27,740 bases of DNA from an uncultured Flavobacteriales bacterium (GTDB taxonomy: Bacteria; Pseudomonadota; Alphaproteobacteria; UBA8366; CAVOAK01), in contig CAZCVU010000001.1 of NCBI GenBank assembly GCA_964501745.1, forward strand, positions 1-27,740. Reading direction: 5' to 3'. Positions within the stretch are counted from its first letter, which is position 1; each line of letters starts with the position of its first letter. Position numbers and translations under genes: made by a program. Below, in pieces: positions 10,558-25,065 of the stretch. The notes under the pieces are model-generated. The model was not told where the DNA came from. It did not search any database and worked only from the letters and a program-made list of their open reading frames with translations.

Positions 10558-10571
10558 TTGATTTCAATCAA
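10558..10571. promoter_or_regulatory. FNR/FixK-type binding site
   Basis: TTGAT-TTCA-ATCAA, an exact match to TTGAT-N4-ATCAA, in the divergent region between the small ORF/selA and the porin gene. Confidence 0.75.
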
Positions 10572-16874: not shown

Positions 16875-16917
16875 TTGATCTAAATCAACGCAGAGCAGGC
16901 CAAGCGTTGACTATATT
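16875..16917 (+). promoter_or_regulatory. FNR/FixK class II promoter for the radical SAM gene
   Basis: Exact TTGAT-CTAA-ATCAA at 16875-16888 plus TATATT at 16912-16917, placing the box centre at about -42.5. Confidence 0.75.
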
Positions 16918-20316: not shown

Positions 20317-21189
20317 TTGGGATTCGTCACCAACGTTGTGCTACCGCTTTCGCTGGCCTTCATCATGTTCACGCTAGGACTCGGGCTGACAGCAAGTGAT
20401 TTCGTCCGCGTCATCCAACAGCCGAAGGACTTTTTCGTCGGCGCCGTCTCACAGGTCGTGTTGCTACCGATCGTCGCCTTTATCCTGGTGACGCTGTGGC
20501 CGGTGTCGCCGGAAATCGCGCTTGGCGTGATGATCATCGCCGCGGCTCCTGGTGGCGTCACCTCGAACCTGTTAACTGCCTTCGGGCGTGGCGACGTGGC
20601 GCTGTCGATTTCGCTAACCGCCGTGATCAGTCTTCTCAGTGTGCTGACGATTCCGCTGATCGTGGTGTTTTCCTACGGCCAGTTCATTGGCGAACAGGTC
20701 GAAGGCGATGTTTCGGTCGCTCGCACGGCCGTCAGCGTCTTCCTGATCGTCACCGTGCCGGTTCTGATCGGCCTCGCGGTGCGCCGTTATGCGGAAGCAT
20801 TTTCACTCCGAGTCGAGCCGGCAGCGCGAAAGGTTTCAGCAGCCCTGTTCGTGCTTGTGCTGCTCGGCGCAATCCTCCAGGAGCGCAACAACATCGTCGA
20901 TTTCTATGCCGAGGCAGGTCTGGTCACGCTGGCGCTCAACGTCGTAATGCTAGGGCTTGCCTGGCTGCTTGGCTCGATGTTCGGGTCTGGCGTTCCGCAG
21001 CGCATCGCCATTTCGATCGAGTGCGGCCTACAAAACGGGACCCTGGCGATCGCCGTCGCGACGCTTCTGTTCGGCGGTGGTCCCGCCGTTATTCCGGCCG
21101 CCACCTACAGCCTGACGATGTTCGCAACGGCGCTGATCCTGATCTACTACCTGCGGCGCAGCGTCGCACCCAGCCCCACCGCGACGTGA
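20317..21189 (+). CDS. Bile acid:sodium symporter (BASS) family transporter
   Basis: IMFTLGLGLT, PGGVTSNL, GDVALSISLT, ISIECGLQNGTLA. TTG start 6 nt after AGGAG. Confidence 0.92.
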   Translation: MGFVTNVVLPLSLAFIMFTLGLGLTASDFVRVIQQPKDFFVGAVSQVVLLPIVAFILVTLWPVSPEIALGVMIIAAAPGGVTSNLLTAFGRGDVALSISLTAVISLLSVLTIPLIVVFSYGQFIGEQVEGDVSVARTAVSVFLIVTVPVLIGLAVRRYAEAFSLRVEPAARKVSAALFVLVLLGAILQERNNIVDFYAEAGLVTLALNVVMLGLAWLLGSMFGSGVPQRIAISIECGLQNGTLAIAVATLLFGGGPAVIPAATYSLTMFATALILIYYLRRSVAPSPTAT

Positions 21190-21444
21190 CCCACGTAGAC
21201 AACGGCGCAGATCTGGCAACTCATTGAAACATAGCGCGTATGTGTCAACGGAGACTCCGCTACGGATTTCGTTCGCCGCTGTTGTTCCGGAGAACCTGCA
21301 AGCTCCAGGTATCGAATCGGAGCCTCAATTCCACTTTGTAACAATTTGTATCAATGTTATTAAATTGAACCTTGGGCAGGGGTCGGTTCTTCAACTTGGG
21401 CGATCTGTGGATTAGGGGAGCAGATCCTGGAGAAAGGGTGAGTG

Positions 21445-22170
21445 ATGGCGAATAACGGTAAGGGCGTTGGCAACGGCAAGGGTTTGGATCAGGCCGAAGA
21501 CAACTTTGCGAACGGTTACTACGAGCACAACAGCAACGGTGCGGCGGACAAGGGGCTGGAAAACGCCCTGGACCACAATCCGTTCAGCATGTCGACAACC
21601 ATCGATTTCGACAGTGGTGTTAACACAATAACGTACAGCTATTACTACTATTATTACTATGAAACTGGCGGCAACTATACGCAGGACGGCTATACCATTA
21701 ACTGGTATGACTATGAGTACTATCCCTGGTATTATGGGTATAGCCCAGCCATCAGTGATACCAACGGCGATGGCGACAACGAGTTCGGCGGTGGCACGGG
21801 ATACAATACGTCCACGTATGGGACGTTGACCGAGGACTCGGGCGAGACCTTCTCGCTGGTCTCAGTCGACGTCGAAAACGATGATGGTGATGGCTATTAC
21901 AGTTATTACTACGACTACGTCTACCTGCAGGCTTATGACGCCAGCGAAAACGATTGGACCTGGTCCTATAACTACGACGACGGATTGGATACCTGGACGA
22001 CCTACGTCTATGATTACGATACCTACACCTACACGACCTACGGCGCAGTAGACAGCGATGTCTCAGGCTATTACCAGGATATCAGTGAATTGTATCTCGG
22101 CACCTATAGCTACTACAGCTACTACTACGACAGCGATGCCATTGCATTGGACAACATTGAAGTCGCCTAG
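21445..22170 (+). CDS. Tyr/Asp-rich acidic protein without signal peptide; candidate type I secretion substrate
   Basis: 241 aa from ATG 21445 after AAAGGG. By hand count 46 Tyr, no Arg or Cys, 3 Lys (all N-terminal). Mixed TAT/TAC codons; DTNGDG Ca-loop-like motif. Confidence 0.75.
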   Translation: MANNGKGVGNGKGLDQAEDNFANGYYEHNSNGAADKGLENALDHNPFSMSTTIDFDSGVNTITYSYYYYYYYETGGNYTQDGYTINWYDYEYYPWYYGYSPAISDTNGDGDNEFGGGTGYNTSTYGTLTEDSGETFSLVSVDVENDDGDGYYSYYYDYVYLQAYDASENDWTWSYNYDDGLDTWTTYVYDYDTYTYTTYGAVDSDVSGYYQDISELYLGTYSYYSYYYDSDAIALDNIEVA

Positions 22171-22211
22171 CAGCTATCGCGCAATCGCGCGGTTTTGCCG
22201 CGTCTAAGGCA

Positions 22212-22245
22212 GACGGAGCGGGTGGGCCGGCCCCATCCGTTTTTG
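22212..22245 (+). terminator. Possible rho-independent terminator after the Tyr-rich gene
   Basis: ACGGA...TGGG-CCGGC-CCCA-TCCGT bulged stem followed by TTTT. Confidence 0.4.
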
Positions 22246-22350
22246 CATTCCGTCAGGCAGGAGAGGCGCTTCAAGCAGGCGATGCGCGGCTCGTCAAAGC
22301 CCTAGGCATCCACCTCCAGCGACGCACTTCCCGCCACAGATCTACAAGAG

Positions 22351-22392
22351 TTGACACAAATCAATGGAACTCTTTGGATCCTGAAGTAGGGT
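22351..22392 (+). promoter_or_regulatory. FNR/FixK class II promoter candidate for the T1SS genes
   Basis: TTGAC-ACAA-ATCAA (9/10) at 22351-22364 and TAGGGT (TAnnnT) at 22387-22392, placing the box centre at -41.5. Confidence 0.6.
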
Positions 22393-22467
22393 TTGTTTAG
22401 GTGGGGCGATCTGCGGACGACGGTCCGCGGATTGTAGCGAAAGGGTGGGGCATGGCGATCGTTCGTT

Positions 22468-23334
22468 ATGGCTCGATCTGCCCTGGCGAGGCTGGGAACT
22501 GCGCTCCGCACGCAAGGCCAAGTGGGAGATGCATCTTCAGCGCAACCGCAATTCGAGAGCCTGACCGCGAAGAAAGTTGTTGTCGCATATCCGCGTGTTC
22601 CGCAGCCTGCTTTACGTGGCATAGATCTCCAACTTACGGCAGGTGAGACATTGGGGATCATTGGCCCGAACGGTGCGGGCAAGACGACACTGCTAAAAGC
22701 GCTGCTGGGCCTTGTTCCGCTGAACGCGGGCTCGGTCCACATCGACGACCTTGATATCCGGAAGATCACTCAGGCCATCCGGATCGACAAGATCGGCTAC
22801 TTGCCGCAAGAAATCGATCTGTTTGCCGCCACAATCGCCGAGAACATTGCCAAGTTGGACATCGCCAACCTCGAAGAAATTCATGCTGCGACGCGTTTGG
22901 CGGGCGTTCACGACGCAATCATGCAGATGCCGCGGGGCTATGAAACCCATGTCGACAAACAAAATGCCCAGGTATCGGCTGGTATTCGCCAACGCATCGG
23001 GCTTGCGCGTGCGATATTTGGAGCCCCGTCGCTGATCGTGCTGGATGAGCCAAACTCCTACCAGGATGCGGAGGGAGACCGAGCGCTAGCCGAAATCCTG
23101 CGCACGGCCAAGGAGCGTCGTGCAATCACGGTGGTCGCGTCTCATAGGCCGCTGATGATGCCGGAAGTTGACAAGCTGTGCTTCCTCGTGAACGGCGAGA
23201 TCAAGCTGTTCGGACCGCGCGAAGAAGTGCAGCGGAAATTGTTCGCTCAGGTATCCGGCCCGGGAAAGGCTCCAGGGGGCATCGCACCACCGCCGCGCGG
23301 CCCGGAACAGGGAACGCCACCGAATGGCCACTAG
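22468..23334 (+). CDS. PrtD/AprD-type type I secretion ABC ATPase, nucleotide-binding domain only (membrane domain missing; possible pseudogene)
   Basis: GPNGAGKT, degenerate signature VSAGIRQRIGLARA, LDEPNS, SHR. The in-frame upstream GAWRSFVMARSALARL is the PrtD last-TM-helix motif, but an in-frame TAG lies at 22435-22437. Confidence 0.8.
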   Translation: MARSALARLGTALRTQGQVGDASSAQPQFESLTAKKVVVAYPRVPQPALRGIDLQLTAGETLGIIGPNGAGKTTLLKALLGLVPLNAGSVHIDDLDIRKITQAIRIDKIGYLPQEIDLFAATIAENIAKLDIANLEEIHAATRLAGVHDAIMQMPRGYETHVDKQNAQVSAGIRQRIGLARAIFGAPSLIVLDEPNSYQDAEGDRALAEILRTAKERRAITVVASHRPLMMPEVDKLCFLVNGEIKLFGPREEVQRKLFAQVSGPGKAPGGIAPPPRGPEQGTPPNGH

Positions 23335-24658
23335 CATTCCACCGGGACCCCGACGCGGCGACCAGTTCGAAAATGTCGGGTCGCTGACAAGAAGGCAGTC
23401 GCTGGTCGCGTCCTTGACGATCATTGCGCTGCTGGGCGGATCGATTGGCTGGTCCGTATTGGCGCCGCTATCCAGTGGTGTGGTCGCAGCCGGACAGATC
23501 GTCGTCGATACCAACCGAAAGAAGATTCAACATCTGGAGGGAGGTATCGTCCGGGAAATCCGGGTCGAGAACGGCGATACCGTGGAGGCCGGCGAGGTCT
23601 TGGTCCTGCTGGACGGCACAGATGCGCTCGTCGAACGGGACGTCCGAGCCGCCGAGTACCTGGCGTTGCGGGCGAAGGAAGCGCGCCTGCAAGCTGAATT
23701 AGCCGGCGTCGATGTCCTTGAATTTCCCGATTTCTTGAATGCAGCCTCGCAGCGCAGAGATCAAGCTATCGCCTTAATGAAGACTCAGATCCTGGAGTTC
23801 CAATCACGCCGTGAAACAAGGCGTGAGAGACTGAAGATATTGGGCAAGCAGATCGATCGTTCAGGCGAAAAAATCTTGGGCCTTAACCGAAAGATCAAGA
23901 CCGCAGAGGACCAGCTGAGCAGTATCGACAAGGAACTGCAGGGCGTGAACCGCCTGCTGGCGAAAGGTTATGTTCCGGCCACGCGGGTGTACCAGCTCGA
24001 GCGGGAAAAGGCACGCATCAGCGGCGAGGTCGAGTCGGATCTTGCGGACATCGCAGAAACCGAGATTTCGATCGGTGAAACCAGGATCGAGATCATTCAG
24101 GTCAAGACAGAATTCCAGGAAGAGGTTTCAAAGCAATTGTCTGAAATCCAGGCCGATATCTACGTGCTCGAACCAAAGCTGACCGGTGCGGGAGACGTGC
24201 TTGAGCGACGCGAGATTATCTCACCGATCGACGGCGTCGTGCTCAACATGACGATTCACACGATCGGCGGCGTTGTGGCCCCTGGGGACACACTACTGGA
24301 AGTCGTTCCGAGCCGAGACGAGCTGCTTGTCGAAGCGGAAATCTCTCCCGTAGACATCGAGGCCGTCACAGTCGGAGACGCGGCTTCGGTACGCTTCTCC
24401 GCGCTGTCGGCTAAGCTGACCCCATTGCTCGATGGTCGCGTCACGCACGTCGCTGCCGATGCTACCGAGAACTCTGAAAAACAGAATGTATATGTGTCCC
24501 GCGTAACCATCGAAAAGCTCGAGCTGAGCAAGCTCGGCGATGTTGACCTCGTTCCGGGCATGCCGGTTGAAGTCCTGATCCGAAAGGGTGAACGAACGGC
24601 TATTTCCTACCTGCTGGACCCGTTGTCTTCAATTATCTTTCGCGGCATGAAGGAGTAG
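23324..24658 (+). CDS. HlyD/PrtE family type I secretion periplasmic adaptor
   Basis: N-terminal TM, APLSSGVVAAGQIVV...KKIQHLEGGIVREIRVENGDTVEAGEVL, coiled coil, ISPIDGVV, LVPGMPVEVLIRKGERTAISYLLDP. Confidence 0.95.
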   Translation: MATSIPPGPRRGDQFENVGSLTRRQSLVASLTIIALLGGSIGWSVLAPLSSGVVAAGQIVVDTNRKKIQHLEGGIVREIRVENGDTVEAGEVLVLLDGTDALVERDVRAAEYLALRAKEARLQAELAGVDVLEFPDFLNAASQRRDQAIALMKTQILEFQSRRETRRERLKILGKQIDRSGEKILGLNRKIKTAEDQLSSIDKELQGVNRLLAKGYVPATRVYQLEREKARISGEVESDLADIAETEISIGETRIEIIQVKTEFQEEVSKQLSEIQADIYVLEPKLTGAGDVLERREIISPIDGVVLNMTIHTIGGVVAPGDTLLEVVPSRDELLVEAEISPVDIEAVTVGDAASVRFSALSAKLTPLLDGRVTHVAADATENSEKQNVYVSRVTIEKLELSKLGDVDLVPGMPVEVLIRKGERTAISYLLDPLSSIIFRGMKE

Positions 24659-24815
24659 CATCAGGTTTCGACGCCTGGTAGGCGGCCAGCCGATCGGCAC
24701 ATTTCTGCGGATTGTGCATCAGCGGTCGCGGACAGTTAGCCGTTGCTTTGCCCGCCACAATGACAACCCGCTTGCAGAATTCAGACAAGTATGTGAAACG
24801 CCTTAGCGCCAAGCT

Positions 24816-25065
24816 TCAGGCGACAGATTCCCCAACTGCAAAGCACGAGCACTGTGCGCCGTGAATAATCTTGTTGGCGATGCTGCCTAGCGACGGGTCC
24901 GGGTCGGGGCCATGTCCACTTCGGCCGGTGACGATCAGGTCGGCGTGGCTGTAATCCGCAGGCCGCAGGATTGCCAAACTCCAAAAATGTATGGATCTTC
25001 TTCACACCCTTTTCACGGGCGATGTGTTCGCCAAGGTCGAGCGCACGCTGACCCACTGCGGTCAT
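24816..25065 (-). pseudogene. Universal stress protein (UspA) remnant, N-terminally truncated and frameshifted at ~24960
   Basis: First frame AREKGVKKIHTFLEFGNPAA, then a shifted frame ADYSHADLIVTGRSGHG...SLGSIANKIIHGAQCSCFAV*, matching the Usp motifs G-D-P-A, ADLIVxGxxG and LGSxxxKVxHxAxC. Confidence 0.75.

What the first reader, a model, noticed from the sequence alone, without database searches (positions are those of the whole stretch)
21445..24658. Extremely tyrosine-rich acidic protein beside a type I secretion module: candidate new extracellular material or adhesin system
About 19% Tyr (46/241) including a Y7 run encoded TAT TAC TAC TAT TAT TAC TAT (21640-21660), so not simple slippage. 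It has no Arg or Cys, abundant Asp, no signal peptide, Ca-loop-like DTNGDG and DDGDG motifs, and beta-strand-like TTIDFD, GETFSLVSVDV and LDNIEV segments. Acidic, Cys-free and signal-less is the established profile of T1SS cargo, but it has no canonical GGxGxDxxx RTX repeats. Inference: surface Tyr arrays could serve dityrosine or DOPA cross-linking (adhesive, sheath), amyloid-like stacking, metal or mineral templating, or electron hopping.
Basis: partly seen in the sequence, partly recalled or inferred. Interest (0 to 1): 0.82.

Follow-up and report, generated by a model that had tools for sequence, protein, structure and literature searches.

The report
Tyrosine-rich cargo of a broken secretion system
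A marine bacterium carries a real, conserved gene for a small acidic protein that is one-fifth tyrosine and belongs to an unnamed family normally exported by its own type I secretion pump, but in this genome the pump gene has lost its membrane half.

Summary
Window 21445-22170 (+) encodes a 241-aa protein with 46 Tyr (19.1%), no Arg or Cys, no signal peptide and the quoted motifs. It is the Tyr outlier of its genome: the next ORF has 8.6% and the mean is 2.3%.

It is a real gene. dN/dS is 0.15 against an 80%-identical orthologue, and 42 of 46 Tyr are kept. It belongs to a rare unnamed family: 25 clusters among 1.84 billion representatives, with no Pfam, NCBIfam or PDB sequence match.

The family is defined by a ~190-aa C-terminal domain. 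AlphaFold models it (pLDDT 81-86) as a lectin/CBM-like beta-jelly-roll with a DxDxDG-type calcium loop. It ends in an acidic residue followed by hydrophobic ones, as AprA/TliA-type type I secretion signals do. All five short-form loci with usable context, this window included, have a PrtD-type ABC gene and an AprE/HlyD adaptor directly downstream. Longer relatives carry RTX and cadherin-like repeats.

Tyr content ranges from 2 to 19.5% on the same fold, so the enrichment is lineage-specific rather than family-defining.

In this window the ABC gene retains only its ATPase half, which a contig from one further seawater metagenome study spans without a difference. No replacement was found in the 88%-complete assembly. 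Cross-linking or redox roles have no support.

The parts
21387..21444 (+). 5' leader of the cargo gene: a GGGCGATCTG motif with a short hairpin, then a GAAAGGGTG Shine-Dalgarno-like stretch before the ATG. This is copy 1 of a ~65-nt direct repeat.
   Evidence: the repeat finder families D3-D5; fold; the 80% relative L007 has the same leader.
21445..22170 (+). Tyr-rich acidic protein gene (241 aa, 27.5 kDa, P0001), the putative type I secretion cargo.
   Evidence: dN/dS 0.154 against L007. Homologues found.
21445..21594 (+). N-terminal module (residues 1-50): a Gly/Lys/Asn-rich start followed by the conserved NFANGY.EHN...GLENAL.HNPF motif. Function unknown; predicted flexible with one helix.
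   Evidence: Invariant columns in A1. pLDDT 36-61 with helix 33-44. The same module sits on a different C-terminal region in P0028.
21595..22167 (+). C-terminal ~190-aa beta-sandwich (jelly-roll, lectin/CBM-like) domain that defines the family.
   Evidence: AlphaFold pLDDT mostly 85-97 with 12 strands. VIA-align Z 7-7.9 to ConA-like lectins, GH16 enzymes and CBMs. The low-Tyr relative's model matches a PEP-CTERM protein at E 1.1e-4.
21640..21660 (+). Run of seven Tyr codons (mixed TAT/TAC), lying in and around the turn of the first long beta-hairpin.
21757..21789 (+). Conserved acidic loop D-T-N-G-D-G-D-N-E-F-G (family consensus DADGDGDNEFG). It is a DxDxDG-type putative Ca2+ site, FG-GAP-like.
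   Evidence: D105, G108, G110, D111, N112, E113 and G115 are invariant in A1. Weak profile hits to FG-GAP repeat proteins align only here.
22150..22167 (+). C-terminal DNIEVA: an acidic residue followed by hydrophobic residues, the putative AprA/PrtG/TliA-type type I secretion motif.
   Evidence: C-termini of all full-length family members. The motif is described in PMC2642768.
22351..22364 (+). FNR/CRP-like palindrome TTGACacaaATCAA between the cargo gene and the ABC remnant.
   Evidence: 6 such sites in the window against 0.62 expected. A perfect box lies at the equivalent place in L007.
22393..22458 (+). Copy 2 of the leader repeat (75% identical to 21387-21451). It has a stronger hairpin and ends in ATGGCGA. 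It abuts the ABC remnant out of frame and is the likely site of the deletion junction.
   Evidence: fold z = -2.9; frame reading.
22468..23334 (+). Remnant of a PrtD-type type I secretion ABC gene: linker plus ATPase domain only (288 aa). The ~300-residue membrane domain is missing.
   Evidence: TIGR01842 positions 289-544 only, 253 bits against a 510-bit cut-off. tblastn with three intact relatives aligns only from their residue ~293-304 onwards. The same structure appears in contig L010, which is 100% identical to the window and whose independence from the MAG's source sample is unknown, and in a seawater contig spanning 22205-22733.
23324..24658 (+). Intact HlyD/AprE-type periplasmic adaptor (444 aa). 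Its start overlaps the ABC remnant by 11 nt.
   Evidence: TIGR01843 at 372 bits against a 208.65-bit cut-off. 41-46% identical to the adaptors next to homologous cargo genes.

Best explanation
The ORF is a genuine gene, under purifying selection, for the dedicated cargo of a three-gene type I secretion cassette: cargo, then a PrtD-type ABC exporter, then an AprE/HlyD adaptor, using an unlinked TolC. The protein has two parts. The first is a flexible but conserved ~50-residue N-terminal module of unknown role. The second is a ~190-residue beta-jelly-roll domain of the lectin/carbohydrate-binding-module kind, with one DxDxDG-type calcium loop. The domain ends in an acidic-then-hydrophobic C-terminal tail, which in relatives would be recognised by the ABC exporter. 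The inferred mechanism follows other type I substrates: the chain is exported unfolded, C-terminus first, and folds outside the cell on binding calcium. The most likely extracellular role is binding, to a polysaccharide, a surface or copies of itself, as a small matrix or adhesion protein. In this lineage a surface that is polar in low-Tyr relatives is heavily substituted with Tyr, which I read as a 'sticky' recognition surface. Tyr enrichment is a graded, lineage-specific feature of the family, not its defining property. In this particular genome about 900 nt encoding the membrane domain of the ABC exporter have been deleted. The cassette is therefore most likely disabled and the cargo gene is a recent relic, or at best is no longer exported by its own pump. 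What is shown: the gene is real; the family, the synteny and the C-terminal motif exist; the fold class is predicted; the ABC is truncated. What is inferred: secretion, calcium binding, the binding/adhesive role and loss of function here.
For: Real gene: dN/dS = 0.154 at dS = 0.68 against the 80%-identical orthologue L007. 42 of 46 Tyr are conserved, 8 of them through TAT<->TAC changes. Family: 6 homologues by word search and 25 clusters by profile search of 1.84 billion representatives, with conserved blocks IDFDSG, DGDGDNEFG, FSL.S.D, YDY.T and DNIE. Synteny: cargo -> ABC (580-618 aa) -> AprE-type adaptor in L002 (Paracoccaceae MAG), L003, L004 and L008/L009, each with different flanking genes, and for the long form P0019. 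Secretion-type features: long forms carry HemolysinCabind RTX repeats and Big_9/Cadherin_4/5 domains. All full-length members end in [DE] plus 2-4 hydrophobic residues, matching the AprA/TliA-type motif described in PMC2642768. The protein is acidic, has no Cys and has no signal peptide. Fold: pLDDT 81.1 and pTM 0.75 for P0001, and 85.6 and 0.76 for the low-Tyr member P0012, with the same strand order. The best structural neighbours are consistently jelly-roll lectins, GH16 enzymes, CBM61/29/51/16 and DUF4465 (Z 7-7.9), plus a PEP-CTERM protein ectodomain (E 1.1e-4, TM 0.41/0.44; TM 0.46/0.54). Tyr on the surface: at window-Tyr columns, low-Tyr relatives have either Y/F (core-like) or S/N/E/D/T/G (surface-like), and some Tyr lie in insertions. 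Broken exporter: searches show the truncation. It recurs in contig L010, which is 100% identical to the window, and in a contig from one further seawater run in a different study that spans the junction with no differences. The assembly has no other PrtD-type ABC, no membrane-domain homologue, no second type I adaptor and no RTX protein, while TolC is present.
Against: No expression or secretion data exist, and no RNA run holding the gene was listed. Structural matches are at the level the tool itself calls 'middling' (Z below 8), so the lectin/CBM assignment describes a fold class, not homology, and a fold does not give a ligand. The window protein has no RTX repeats. Its C-terminal tail (E-V-A) is shorter than the classical D plus three hydrophobic residues. 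No polysaccharide-synthesis or biofilm genes are consistently linked. The genome is a MAG of 700 contigs at 87.6% completeness, so a substitute exporter could lie in unassembled sequence. The ATPase remnant still has intact Walker A, Walker B and H-loop motifs. The cargo gene shows no decay. Both observations are compatible with a very recent deletion or with some retained function.
Confidence: 0.6

Rival explanations
1. First reader's reading. The Tyr arrays are the functional point: after export they are oxidised to dityrosine or DOPA to form a cross-linked adhesive or sheath, or they stack as amyloid, template minerals or relay electrons.
For: The Tyr content is extreme (19.1%) and maintained by selection between 80%-identical orthologues. 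The nearest relatives are all Tyr-rich at 12-19.5%. The habitat is marine, where DOPA/Tyr adhesives are known in animals (background knowledge). Many Tyr occupy positions that are polar in low-Tyr relatives, so they are probably solvent-exposed.
Against: No tyrosinase, peroxidase, laccase or sulfotransferase is conserved beside the cassette in any of the five contexts. The protein is confidently predicted as a compact globular sandwich, not a repeat fibre or a disordered adhesive. The same domain works with 2-8% Tyr in other members. There are no Cys, His clusters or haem motifs to support redox chemistry. In this genome the exporter is broken.
Confidence: 0.08
2. The Tyr enrichment is a structural or compositional by-product. 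Tyr has high beta-strand propensity and has replaced Phe and polar residues and filled hairpin insertions in one sub-lineage, with no new function. The protein does whatever its low-Tyr relatives do.
For: Tyr content is graded across the family (2, 4, 6, 7, 9, 12, 15, 16, 19%) on one fold. At many window-Tyr columns the low-Tyr members simply have Phe (35 cells) or Tyr (57 cells). Several Tyr lie in lineage-specific insertions (residues 69-72 and 221-227).
Against: A fivefold to eightfold excess over the genome mean is hard to reach by drift in a genome whose neighbouring genes have about 60% G+C (mean 2.28% Tyr), because Tyr codons are AT-rich and one step from stop codons. 42 of 46 Tyr are retained at dS 0.68 with dN/dS 0.15. 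About a dozen strand positions changed from polar residues to Tyr, which suggests a selected surface.
Confidence: 0.2
3. The cassette is still functional here. The cargo is exported by another ABC exporter working with the retained adaptor and TolC, or the stand-alone ATPase pairs with a separately encoded membrane subunit.
For: The cargo, adaptor and ATPase reading frames are all open. The ATPase keeps Walker A, Walker B and H-loop motifs. TolC is present. The configuration is 100% identical in contigs from two seawater runs of different studies and years, and a contig from a third run in a third study spans the junction with no differences. The assembly is only 87.6% complete.
Against: No PrtD/HlyB-type ABC above cut-off and no homologue of the missing membrane domain were found in the assembly. 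Type I ABC exporters are, as far as I know, single-chain half-transporters with the membrane and ATPase domains fused (background knowledge; PMC8277102 describes PrtD). The signature motif is degenerate, SAGI where relatives have SGG(R/Q). The repeated leader's ATG (22452) is out of frame with the ATPase ORF, and no clear ribosome-binding site precedes 22468.
Confidence: 0.1
4. The protein is an exported toxin or bacteriocin-like effector rather than a binding or matrix protein.
For: It is a small dedicated cargo next to its own ABC and adaptor. In L002 the cassette is flanked by transposase genes, suggesting mobility. Jelly-roll receptor-binding domains occur in some toxins (hits).
Against: There is no conserved immunity gene or small partner ORF in any context. 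The ABCs have no C39 peptidase domain, only ABC_membrane plus ABC_tran at 580-618 aa. There is no catalytic or pore-forming domain. Long forms look like adhesins, with RTX plus cadherin-like repeats.
Confidence: 0.04

Closest known systems
Rap proteins (RapA2, RapD) of Rhizobium leguminosarum, secreted by the PrsDE type I system (PMC9298526, PMC5061743)
   Same: They are small (about 25-30 kDa), acidic, calcium-dependent extracellular beta-sheet proteins exported by a PrtD-family ABC plus an adaptor. They act as lectins or matrix proteins for the cell's own polysaccharide. Long-form relatives of the window protein carry cadherin-like domains, as Rap proteins do.
   Different: There is no sequence or Pfam relationship. 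The window protein has no Ra/CHDL cadherin-like domain. It has its own dedicated exporter genes rather than sharing PrsDE. Rap proteins are not Tyr-rich (background knowledge; their composition was not checked here). The function here is inferred only.
Serralysin/lipase-type type I substrates (AprA, PrtG, TliA) and their PrtD/AprD-AprE exporters
   Same: The exporter subfamily is the same: the best NCBIfam match is TIGR01842 PrtD, and the adaptor Pfam families are HH_AprE and Beta-barrel_AprE. The C-terminus is uncleaved and ends in an acidic residue followed by hydrophobic residues (PMC2642768). There is no signal peptide, and the protein is acidic and Cys-free.
   Different: The window protein has no RTX beta-roll and no enzyme domain. 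Calcium binding would rest on a single DxDxDG loop inside a jelly-roll.
Ectodomains of small PEP-CTERM (exosortase-sorted) proteins, e.g. AFDB cluster A0A239HAM1
   Same: This is the best structural neighbour of the family's domain: E 1.1e-4 and TM 0.41/0.44 over residues 50-234 of the low-Tyr member, and TM 0.46/0.54 for the window protein in the ESM Atlas. Both are extracellular beta-sandwiches of similar size.
   Different: The window protein has no PEP-CTERM motif, no C-terminal transmembrane helix and no signal peptide, so its export route is different. Sequence identity is only 18%, and homology is not established.
Jelly-roll carbohydrate-binding modules and lectins (CBM61, CBM29, CBM51, CBM16, legume-lectin-like, ERGIC-53, DUF4465)
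   Same: They share the fold class, many have a structural calcium site, and many have aromatic-rich binding faces.
   Different: Z is 7.9 or lower, which the tool rates as possibly only a common arrangement. No sequence similarity was found. No ligand is known. Aromatic content is far higher here, at 23%.
FG-GAP / DxDxDG calcium loops
   Same: The DADGDGDNEFG loop matches the DxDxDG pattern, and the family profile weakly hits FG-GAP repeat proteins only in this segment.
   Different: There is a single loop in a sandwich, not a beta-propeller of repeats. It is not a member of that family.

Membership tests
Type I secretion substrate (functional class, AprA/PrtG/TliA-type signal) | The gene is linked to a type I ABC exporter and a membrane-fusion adaptor. 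| tested here: met
   Cargo -> ABC -> adaptor in L002, L003, L004 and L008/9 and for P0019. The order is the same in the window, but the ABC is truncated there.
Type I secretion substrate (functional class, AprA/PrtG/TliA-type signal) | The extreme C-terminus is an acidic residue followed by several hydrophobic residues and is not cleaved. | tested here: met
   All full-length members end in [DE] plus 2-4 of A/V/I/L/M/F. The window protein ends ...DNIEVA, a short version. The motif is as described in PMC2642768. Cleavage is not testable here.
Type I secretion substrate (functional class, AprA/PrtG/TliA-type signal) | No N-terminal Sec/Tat signal; acidic; few or no Cys. | tested here: met
   The longest hydrophobic run in the first 60 residues is 2. 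There are 42 acidic against 3 basic residues and 0 Cys.
Type I secretion substrate (functional class, AprA/PrtG/TliA-type signal) | Secretion shown to depend on the ABC, adaptor and TolC. | not testable with these tools
   This needs an expression and secretion experiment. No RNA run was listed.
RTX proteins (Pfam PF00353 HemolysinCabind) | Tandem GGxGxDxUx nonapeptide repeats. | tested here: not met
   No Pfam hit for P0001 at E up to 0.1. The long-form relatives P0016, P0019, P0023 and P0029 do have them.
PrtD-type type I ABC exporter (NCBIfam TIGR01842), for the neighbouring gene | Full-length match (membrane domain plus ATPase) above the 510-bit cut-off. | tested here: not met
   252.8 bits covering profile positions 289-544 only. 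tblastn with intact relatives finds nothing upstream.
HlyD-family type I adaptor (NCBIfam TIGR01843), for the neighbouring gene | Full-length match above the 208.65-bit cut-off. | tested here: met
   372.1 bits covering positions 3-421 of 422.
Concanavalin-A-like lectin / CBM jelly-roll folds | Significant structural superposition over the whole domain. | tested here: inconclusive
   VIA-align Z 7.0-7.9 over residues 48-241, and all top hits belong to this fold class, but this is within the tool's stated background range. Foldseek against the PDB gave E above 0.01.
PEP-CTERM proteins (PF07589) | C-terminal PEP motif, transmembrane helix and basic tail, with an N-terminal signal peptide. | tested here: not met
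   The sequence ends DNIEVA, has no hydrophobic helix and gives no Pfam hit. Only the ectodomain fold resembles this family.
Rap / CHDL lectins | Ra/CHDL cadherin-like domain. | tested here: not met
   There is no Cadherin-family hit in P0001. Such domains are present only in long-form relatives.
Bacteriocin/microcin-type type I cargo | Double-glycine leader and an ABC exporter with an N-terminal C39 peptidase domain. | tested here: not met
   The linked ABCs are 580-618 aa with only ABC_membrane and ABC_tran. Their best family is PrtD, not the peptidase-containing classes.

The most novel reading that the evidence does not exclude
The Tyr-rich branch of this family is a bacterial, type I-secreted, calcium-folded 'sticky' protein. 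Its Tyr-covered beta-sandwich would self-associate or be oxidatively cross-linked into an extracellular adhesive or coat. That would make it a prokaryotic, folded counterpart of the Tyr/DOPA adhesives of marine animals, carried on a mobile three-gene cassette.
Probability: 0.08. Interest if true: 0.75.

Novelty: new member of a known kind. Interest (0 to 1): 0.45.

Why it matters
The work defines a previously unnamed domain family with no Pfam, NCBIfam or PDB sequence match. The family behaves as the dedicated cargo of a compact, apparently mobile type I secretion cassette in marine bacteria. It adds a non-RTX, single-calcium-loop jelly-roll to the known repertoire of type I substrates. The family also offers a natural series on one fold, from 2% to 19.5% Tyr. 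That series is useful for asking what a Tyr-saturated protein surface does, for example binding, self-assembly or cross-linking, and how far a beta-sandwich tolerates aromatic substitution. For this genome the practical message is more modest. The only type I system found in the assembly has lost the membrane half of its pump, so the locus is most likely a recent relic rather than an active extracellular-material system.

Tried and rejected
- Pfam and NCBIfam scans of the protein, and Pfam scans of all 26 aligned members, gave nothing.
- A profile search against PDB sequences gave nothing at E up to 10.
- Foldseek against the PDB and AFDB with the window model gave no hit below E 0.01, and all TM scores were below 0.3. 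Only the low-Tyr relative's model gave one AFDB hit.
- The ESM Atlas feature search gave scores of 0.83 or lower, which are leads only.
- Homologues were not found in 4 same-genus genomes or in 400 genomes sampled across the class. One hit appeared among the GTDB species representatives, a Paracoccaceae MAG.
- A word-based search with the N-terminal 50 residues found only the protein itself and its closest relative.
- No RNA sequencing run was listed, so expression is untested.
- Rfam found nothing in the leader or intergenic regions.
- A full-text literature search for 'tyrosine-rich' together with 'type I secretion' returned 0 papers.

Ideas considered and dropped:
- The ORF is an out-of-frame reading of the missing ABC membrane domain. 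Rejected because there is no tblastn similarity in any frame, homologues are conserved and dN/dS is 0.15.
- The truncation is an assembly artefact. Rejected because a contig from a different study crosses the junction with no differences.
- The Logan contig ends at 22429 mark a population variant. Rejected because neighbouring contigs overlap by 11 nt at depth ~6, indicating a low-coverage break.
- A LapA/LapG-type N-terminal retention module with a di-alanine site. Rejected because the 'AA' is not conserved across the family.
- A double-glycine leader with a C39 exporter. Rejected because the ABCs lack that domain.
- Tyr-modifying enzymes nearby. None is conserved. The Fe(II)/2OG oxygenases at 13-16 kb in this window are not found in the other loci.

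Full report
**1. Observation**

The ORF is at window 21445-22170 on the + strand. A GTG one codon upstream is also open, but all homologues start MA..., so ATG 21445 is taken as the start.

The 241-aa product has 46 Tyr (19.1%), 30 Asp, 12 Glu, 3 Lys, no Arg and no Cys. Aromatic residues make up 23%.

The Y7 run at 21640-21660 is encoded by mixed TAT/TAC codons. No run of more than two hydrophobic residues occurs in the first 60 residues, so there is no Sec-type signal.

Tyr averages 2.28% in 1404 long ORFs of the same genome, with a maximum of 7.2%. The binomial tail for 46 of 241 is 2.7e-28. Among all ORFs of 100 aa or more, the next highest value is 8.6%.

**2. It is a real, selected gene with homologues**

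A word-indexed search found six relatives at 42-80% identity. A profile search over 1.84 billion cluster representatives found 25 clusters, 20 of them below E 1e-10.

Against the 80%-identical orthologue on contig L007, dS is 0.68, dN is 0.10 and dN/dS is 0.154. Of the 46 Tyr, 42 are conserved, eight of them through synonymous TAT<->TAC changes.

No other long ORF overlaps the gene on either strand.

The family is rare. It was not found in four same-genus genomes or in 400 genomes sampled across the class. It appeared once among GTDB species representatives, in a complete Paracoccaceae MAG.

The organism is marine. Seven seawater metagenome runs from five studies hold at least part of the stretch.

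**3. Anatomy of the family**

Alignments A1 and A2 show two modules.

(a) An N-terminal ~50 residues:
- It has a Gly/Lys/Asn-rich start followed by the strongly conserved NFANGY.EHN...GLENAL.HNPF motif.
- AlphaFold gives it low confidence, with one helix.
- The same module heads a protein with a different C-terminal region (P0028), so it is a separable unit.
- Its role is unknown.

(b) A C-terminal ~190-residue domain:
- Its conserved blocks are IDFDSG, G.Y..DG(Y/F)T, D.DGDGDNEFG, FSL.S.D, (A)YT.D, YDY.T and DNIE.
- In longer proteins (P0014, P0016, P0019, P0023, P0029) this domain is the C-terminal end. It follows canonical RTX repeats (HemolysinCabind) and Big_9/Cadherin-like domains, the usual building blocks of type I-secreted adhesins.
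- The window protein's domain is closest to that of long form P0019, at 52% identity.

**4. Fold**

With the 26-sequence alignment, AlphaFold2 gives pLDDT 81.1 and pTM 0.75 for the window protein. Residues 50-241 form 12 strands, mostly at pLDDT 85-97. The low-Tyr relative P0012 gives pLDDT 85.6 and pTM 0.76 with the same strand order.

Results of the structure searches:
- Foldseek found nothing convincing in the PDB.
- An exhaustive VIA-align pass put jelly-roll lectins, GH16 enzymes and CBMs on top for both models, including CBM61, CBM29, CBM51, ERGIC-53, a legume-lectin-like domain and DUF4465. Z was 7.0-7.9 over the whole domain. The tool warns that this range can reflect only a common arrangement.
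- The best predicted-structure neighbour was a small PEP-CTERM protein ectodomain in two libraries: E 1.1e-4 with TM 0.41/0.44, and TM 0.46/0.54.

I conclude that the fold class is a lectin/CBM-like beta-jelly-roll. Homology to a named family is not shown.

The invariant acidic loop (consensus DADGDGDNEFG; DTNGDGDNEFG in the window) fits the DxDxDG calcium-loop pattern. The family profile weakly hits FG-GAP repeat proteins only in this segment. Calcium binding is inferred, not tested.

**5. Linkage to type I secretion**

Every short-form homologue with usable flanks is followed directly by a 580-618-aa ABC exporter (ABC_membrane plus ABC_tran, no C39 domain) and a ~430-450-aa AprE/HlyD adaptor. 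The flanking genes are otherwise unrelated.
- L002: the cassette is flanked by transposase genes.
- L003, L004 and L008/L009: same gene order.
- The long form P0019 has the same arrangement.
- Two RTX-bearing long forms, P0023 and P0029, are unlinked.

All full-length members end in an acidic residue followed by 2-4 hydrophobic residues, usually with a terminal Ala. PMC2642768 describes this pattern for AprA and TliA and cites the PrtG four-residue motif. The linked exporters belong to the PrtD subfamily (PrtD is described in PMC8277102).

Together with the acidic, Cys-free, signal-less profile, this makes 'dedicated type I cargo' a strong inference. I put it at about 0.85.

**6. The exporter is broken in this genome**

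- The ORF at 22468-23334 matches only positions 289-544 of the PrtD profile, at 253 bits against a 510-bit cut-off.
- tblastn with three intact relatives aligns only from their residues ~293-304 onward. Nothing upstream is alignable in any frame.
- Only 297 nt separate the cargo stop from this ORF, so about 900 nt encoding the six-helix membrane domain are absent.
- The same structure is present in contig L010, which is 100% identical to the window. Whether L010 comes from a sample independent of the MAG's source is not known.
- Contigs from two seawater runs of different studies and years (2020 and 2023) are 100% identical to the window but break just upstream of the junction. A 529-nt contig from a third run in a third study spans 22205-22733 with no differences. 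The truncation is therefore not an artefact of this assembly.
- A ~65-nt direct repeat of the cargo gene's leader (21387-21451 against 22393-22458, 75% identical) ends in ATGGCGA right before the remnant and out of frame with it. I read this as the ABC gene's own leader and first codons fused by deletion to codon ~305. That is inference.
- The remnant keeps Walker A, Walker B and H-loop motifs but has a degenerate signature, SAGI where relatives have SGG(R/Q).
- The adaptor is intact and 41-46% identical to its counterparts.
- In the 87.6%-complete assembly there is a TolC. There is no other PrtD-type ABC, no homologue of the missing domain, no second type I adaptor and no RTX protein.

The only type I system found in this organism's assembly is therefore most likely disabled, and recently so, since nothing else in the cassette has decayed.

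**7. What the tyrosines mean**

Tyr content across the family runs from 2% to 19.5% on the same domain. The window protein and its nearest relative sit at the extreme, and the other short forms mostly lie at 12-16%.

At the window's Tyr columns, low-Tyr members show three patterns:
- Tyr or Phe, which look like core aromatic positions.
- Ser, Asn, Glu, Asp, Thr or Gly, which look like surface positions. About a dozen of these lie in strands.
- Gaps, where the window has Tyr-rich insertions, including part of the Y7 run and residues 221-227.

So the enrichment arose from Phe-to-Tyr changes, polar-to-Tyr changes on exposed strand faces, and Tyr-rich insertions. It is kept by selection between close orthologues.

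This favours a selected, Tyr-covered surface, and Tyr is the classic residue of protein and carbohydrate recognition surfaces (background knowledge). It does not by itself indicate cross-linking, redox or mineral chemistry. No Tyr-modifying enzyme is conserved near any cassette, and the protein is predicted to be globular.

**8. Best explanation and rivals**

Best explanation: a calcium-folded, lectin-like extracellular binding or matrix protein that is the dedicated cargo of a mobile PrtD/AprE-type cassette, with a lineage-specific Tyr-rich surface. In this genome its pump is broken. Composite confidence is 0.6.

Rivals:
- Tyr enrichment as a structural by-product: 0.2.
- Still exported through another pump: 0.1.
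- Cross-linking, redox or amyloid material: 0.08.
- Toxin or bacteriocin: 0.04.

A spurious ORF is excluded.

**9. Comparison with known systems**

Functionally the closest are the Rap calcium-binding lectins of Rhizobium, exported by PrsDE (PMC9298526, PMC5061743). Mechanistically the closest are the AprA/PrtG/TliA substrates of PrtD-type exporters. Structurally the closest are PEP-CTERM ectodomains and jelly-roll CBMs.

It is not a member of the RTX, CHDL, PEP-CTERM or FG-GAP families, because defining features were tested and not met. It is best filed as a new, unnamed family within the known class of type I secretion substrates.

**10. Verdict**

The exotic Tyr chemistries are unsupported, and the local system is probably defunct.

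Interest is moderate at 0.45. This is a new domain family with a striking, selected composition and a clean testable secretion model, but a conventional mechanism and a broken copy here.

Noticed in passing
window 22351-22364; also 10558-10571, 16875-16888, 3168, 11963, 25709; L007:1236-1249: FNR/CRP-type palindromes (TTGAT-N4-ATCAA, up to 1 mismatch) are over-represented in the window: 6 found against 0.62 expected, and 0 of 100 shuffles reach 6. One lies between the cargo gene and the ABC remnant. The 80% relative L007 has a perfect box at the equivalent position, which suggests low-oxygen control of the exporter genes in this lineage only. The box is absent from L002, L003, L004 and L008.
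   Followed up: partly
window 21387-21451 and 22393-22458; L007:1290-1359: A ~65-nt leader is present in two copies in the window. It consists of GGGCGATCTG, a hairpin, GAAAGGGTG and ATGGCGA. The second copy's hairpin folds with z = -2.9. The GGCGATCTGTG core occurs as two exact copies plus one degenerate copy in tandem after the FNR box in L007. There is no Rfam match. It could be a lineage-specific regulatory leader shared by the cargo and ABC genes.
   Followed up: partly
window 21000-25000: The cassette region has lower G+C (0.53-0.57) than its flanks (0.59-0.63). This is partly due to Tyr codons, but the ATPase remnant and adaptor genes are also lower (GC3 0.65-0.67 against 0.75-0.79 in neighbours). 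Together with different flanks in every relative and transposases around the L002 copy, this points to horizontal transfer of the three-gene unit.
   Followed up: partly
P0028 (locus L024:85-678): A 197-aa protein carries the same conserved N-terminal NFANGY...GLENA..HNP module on an unrelated, non-Tyr-rich C-terminal region. The N-terminal module is therefore an independent unit of unknown function. The contig is too short to show its neighbours.
   Followed up: no
own genome G000 (whole assembly): The assembly contains no HemolysinCabind (RTX) match, and its only type I adaptor is the one in this window. The truncated cassette is thus the only type I secretion system found in the 87.6%-complete MAG.
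   Followed up: yes
L004:4255-5913: In one relative the cassette is followed directly by a response-regulator/EAL (c-di-GMP phosphodiesterase) gene, a possible link to biofilm control. This is not conserved in the other loci.
   Followed up: no
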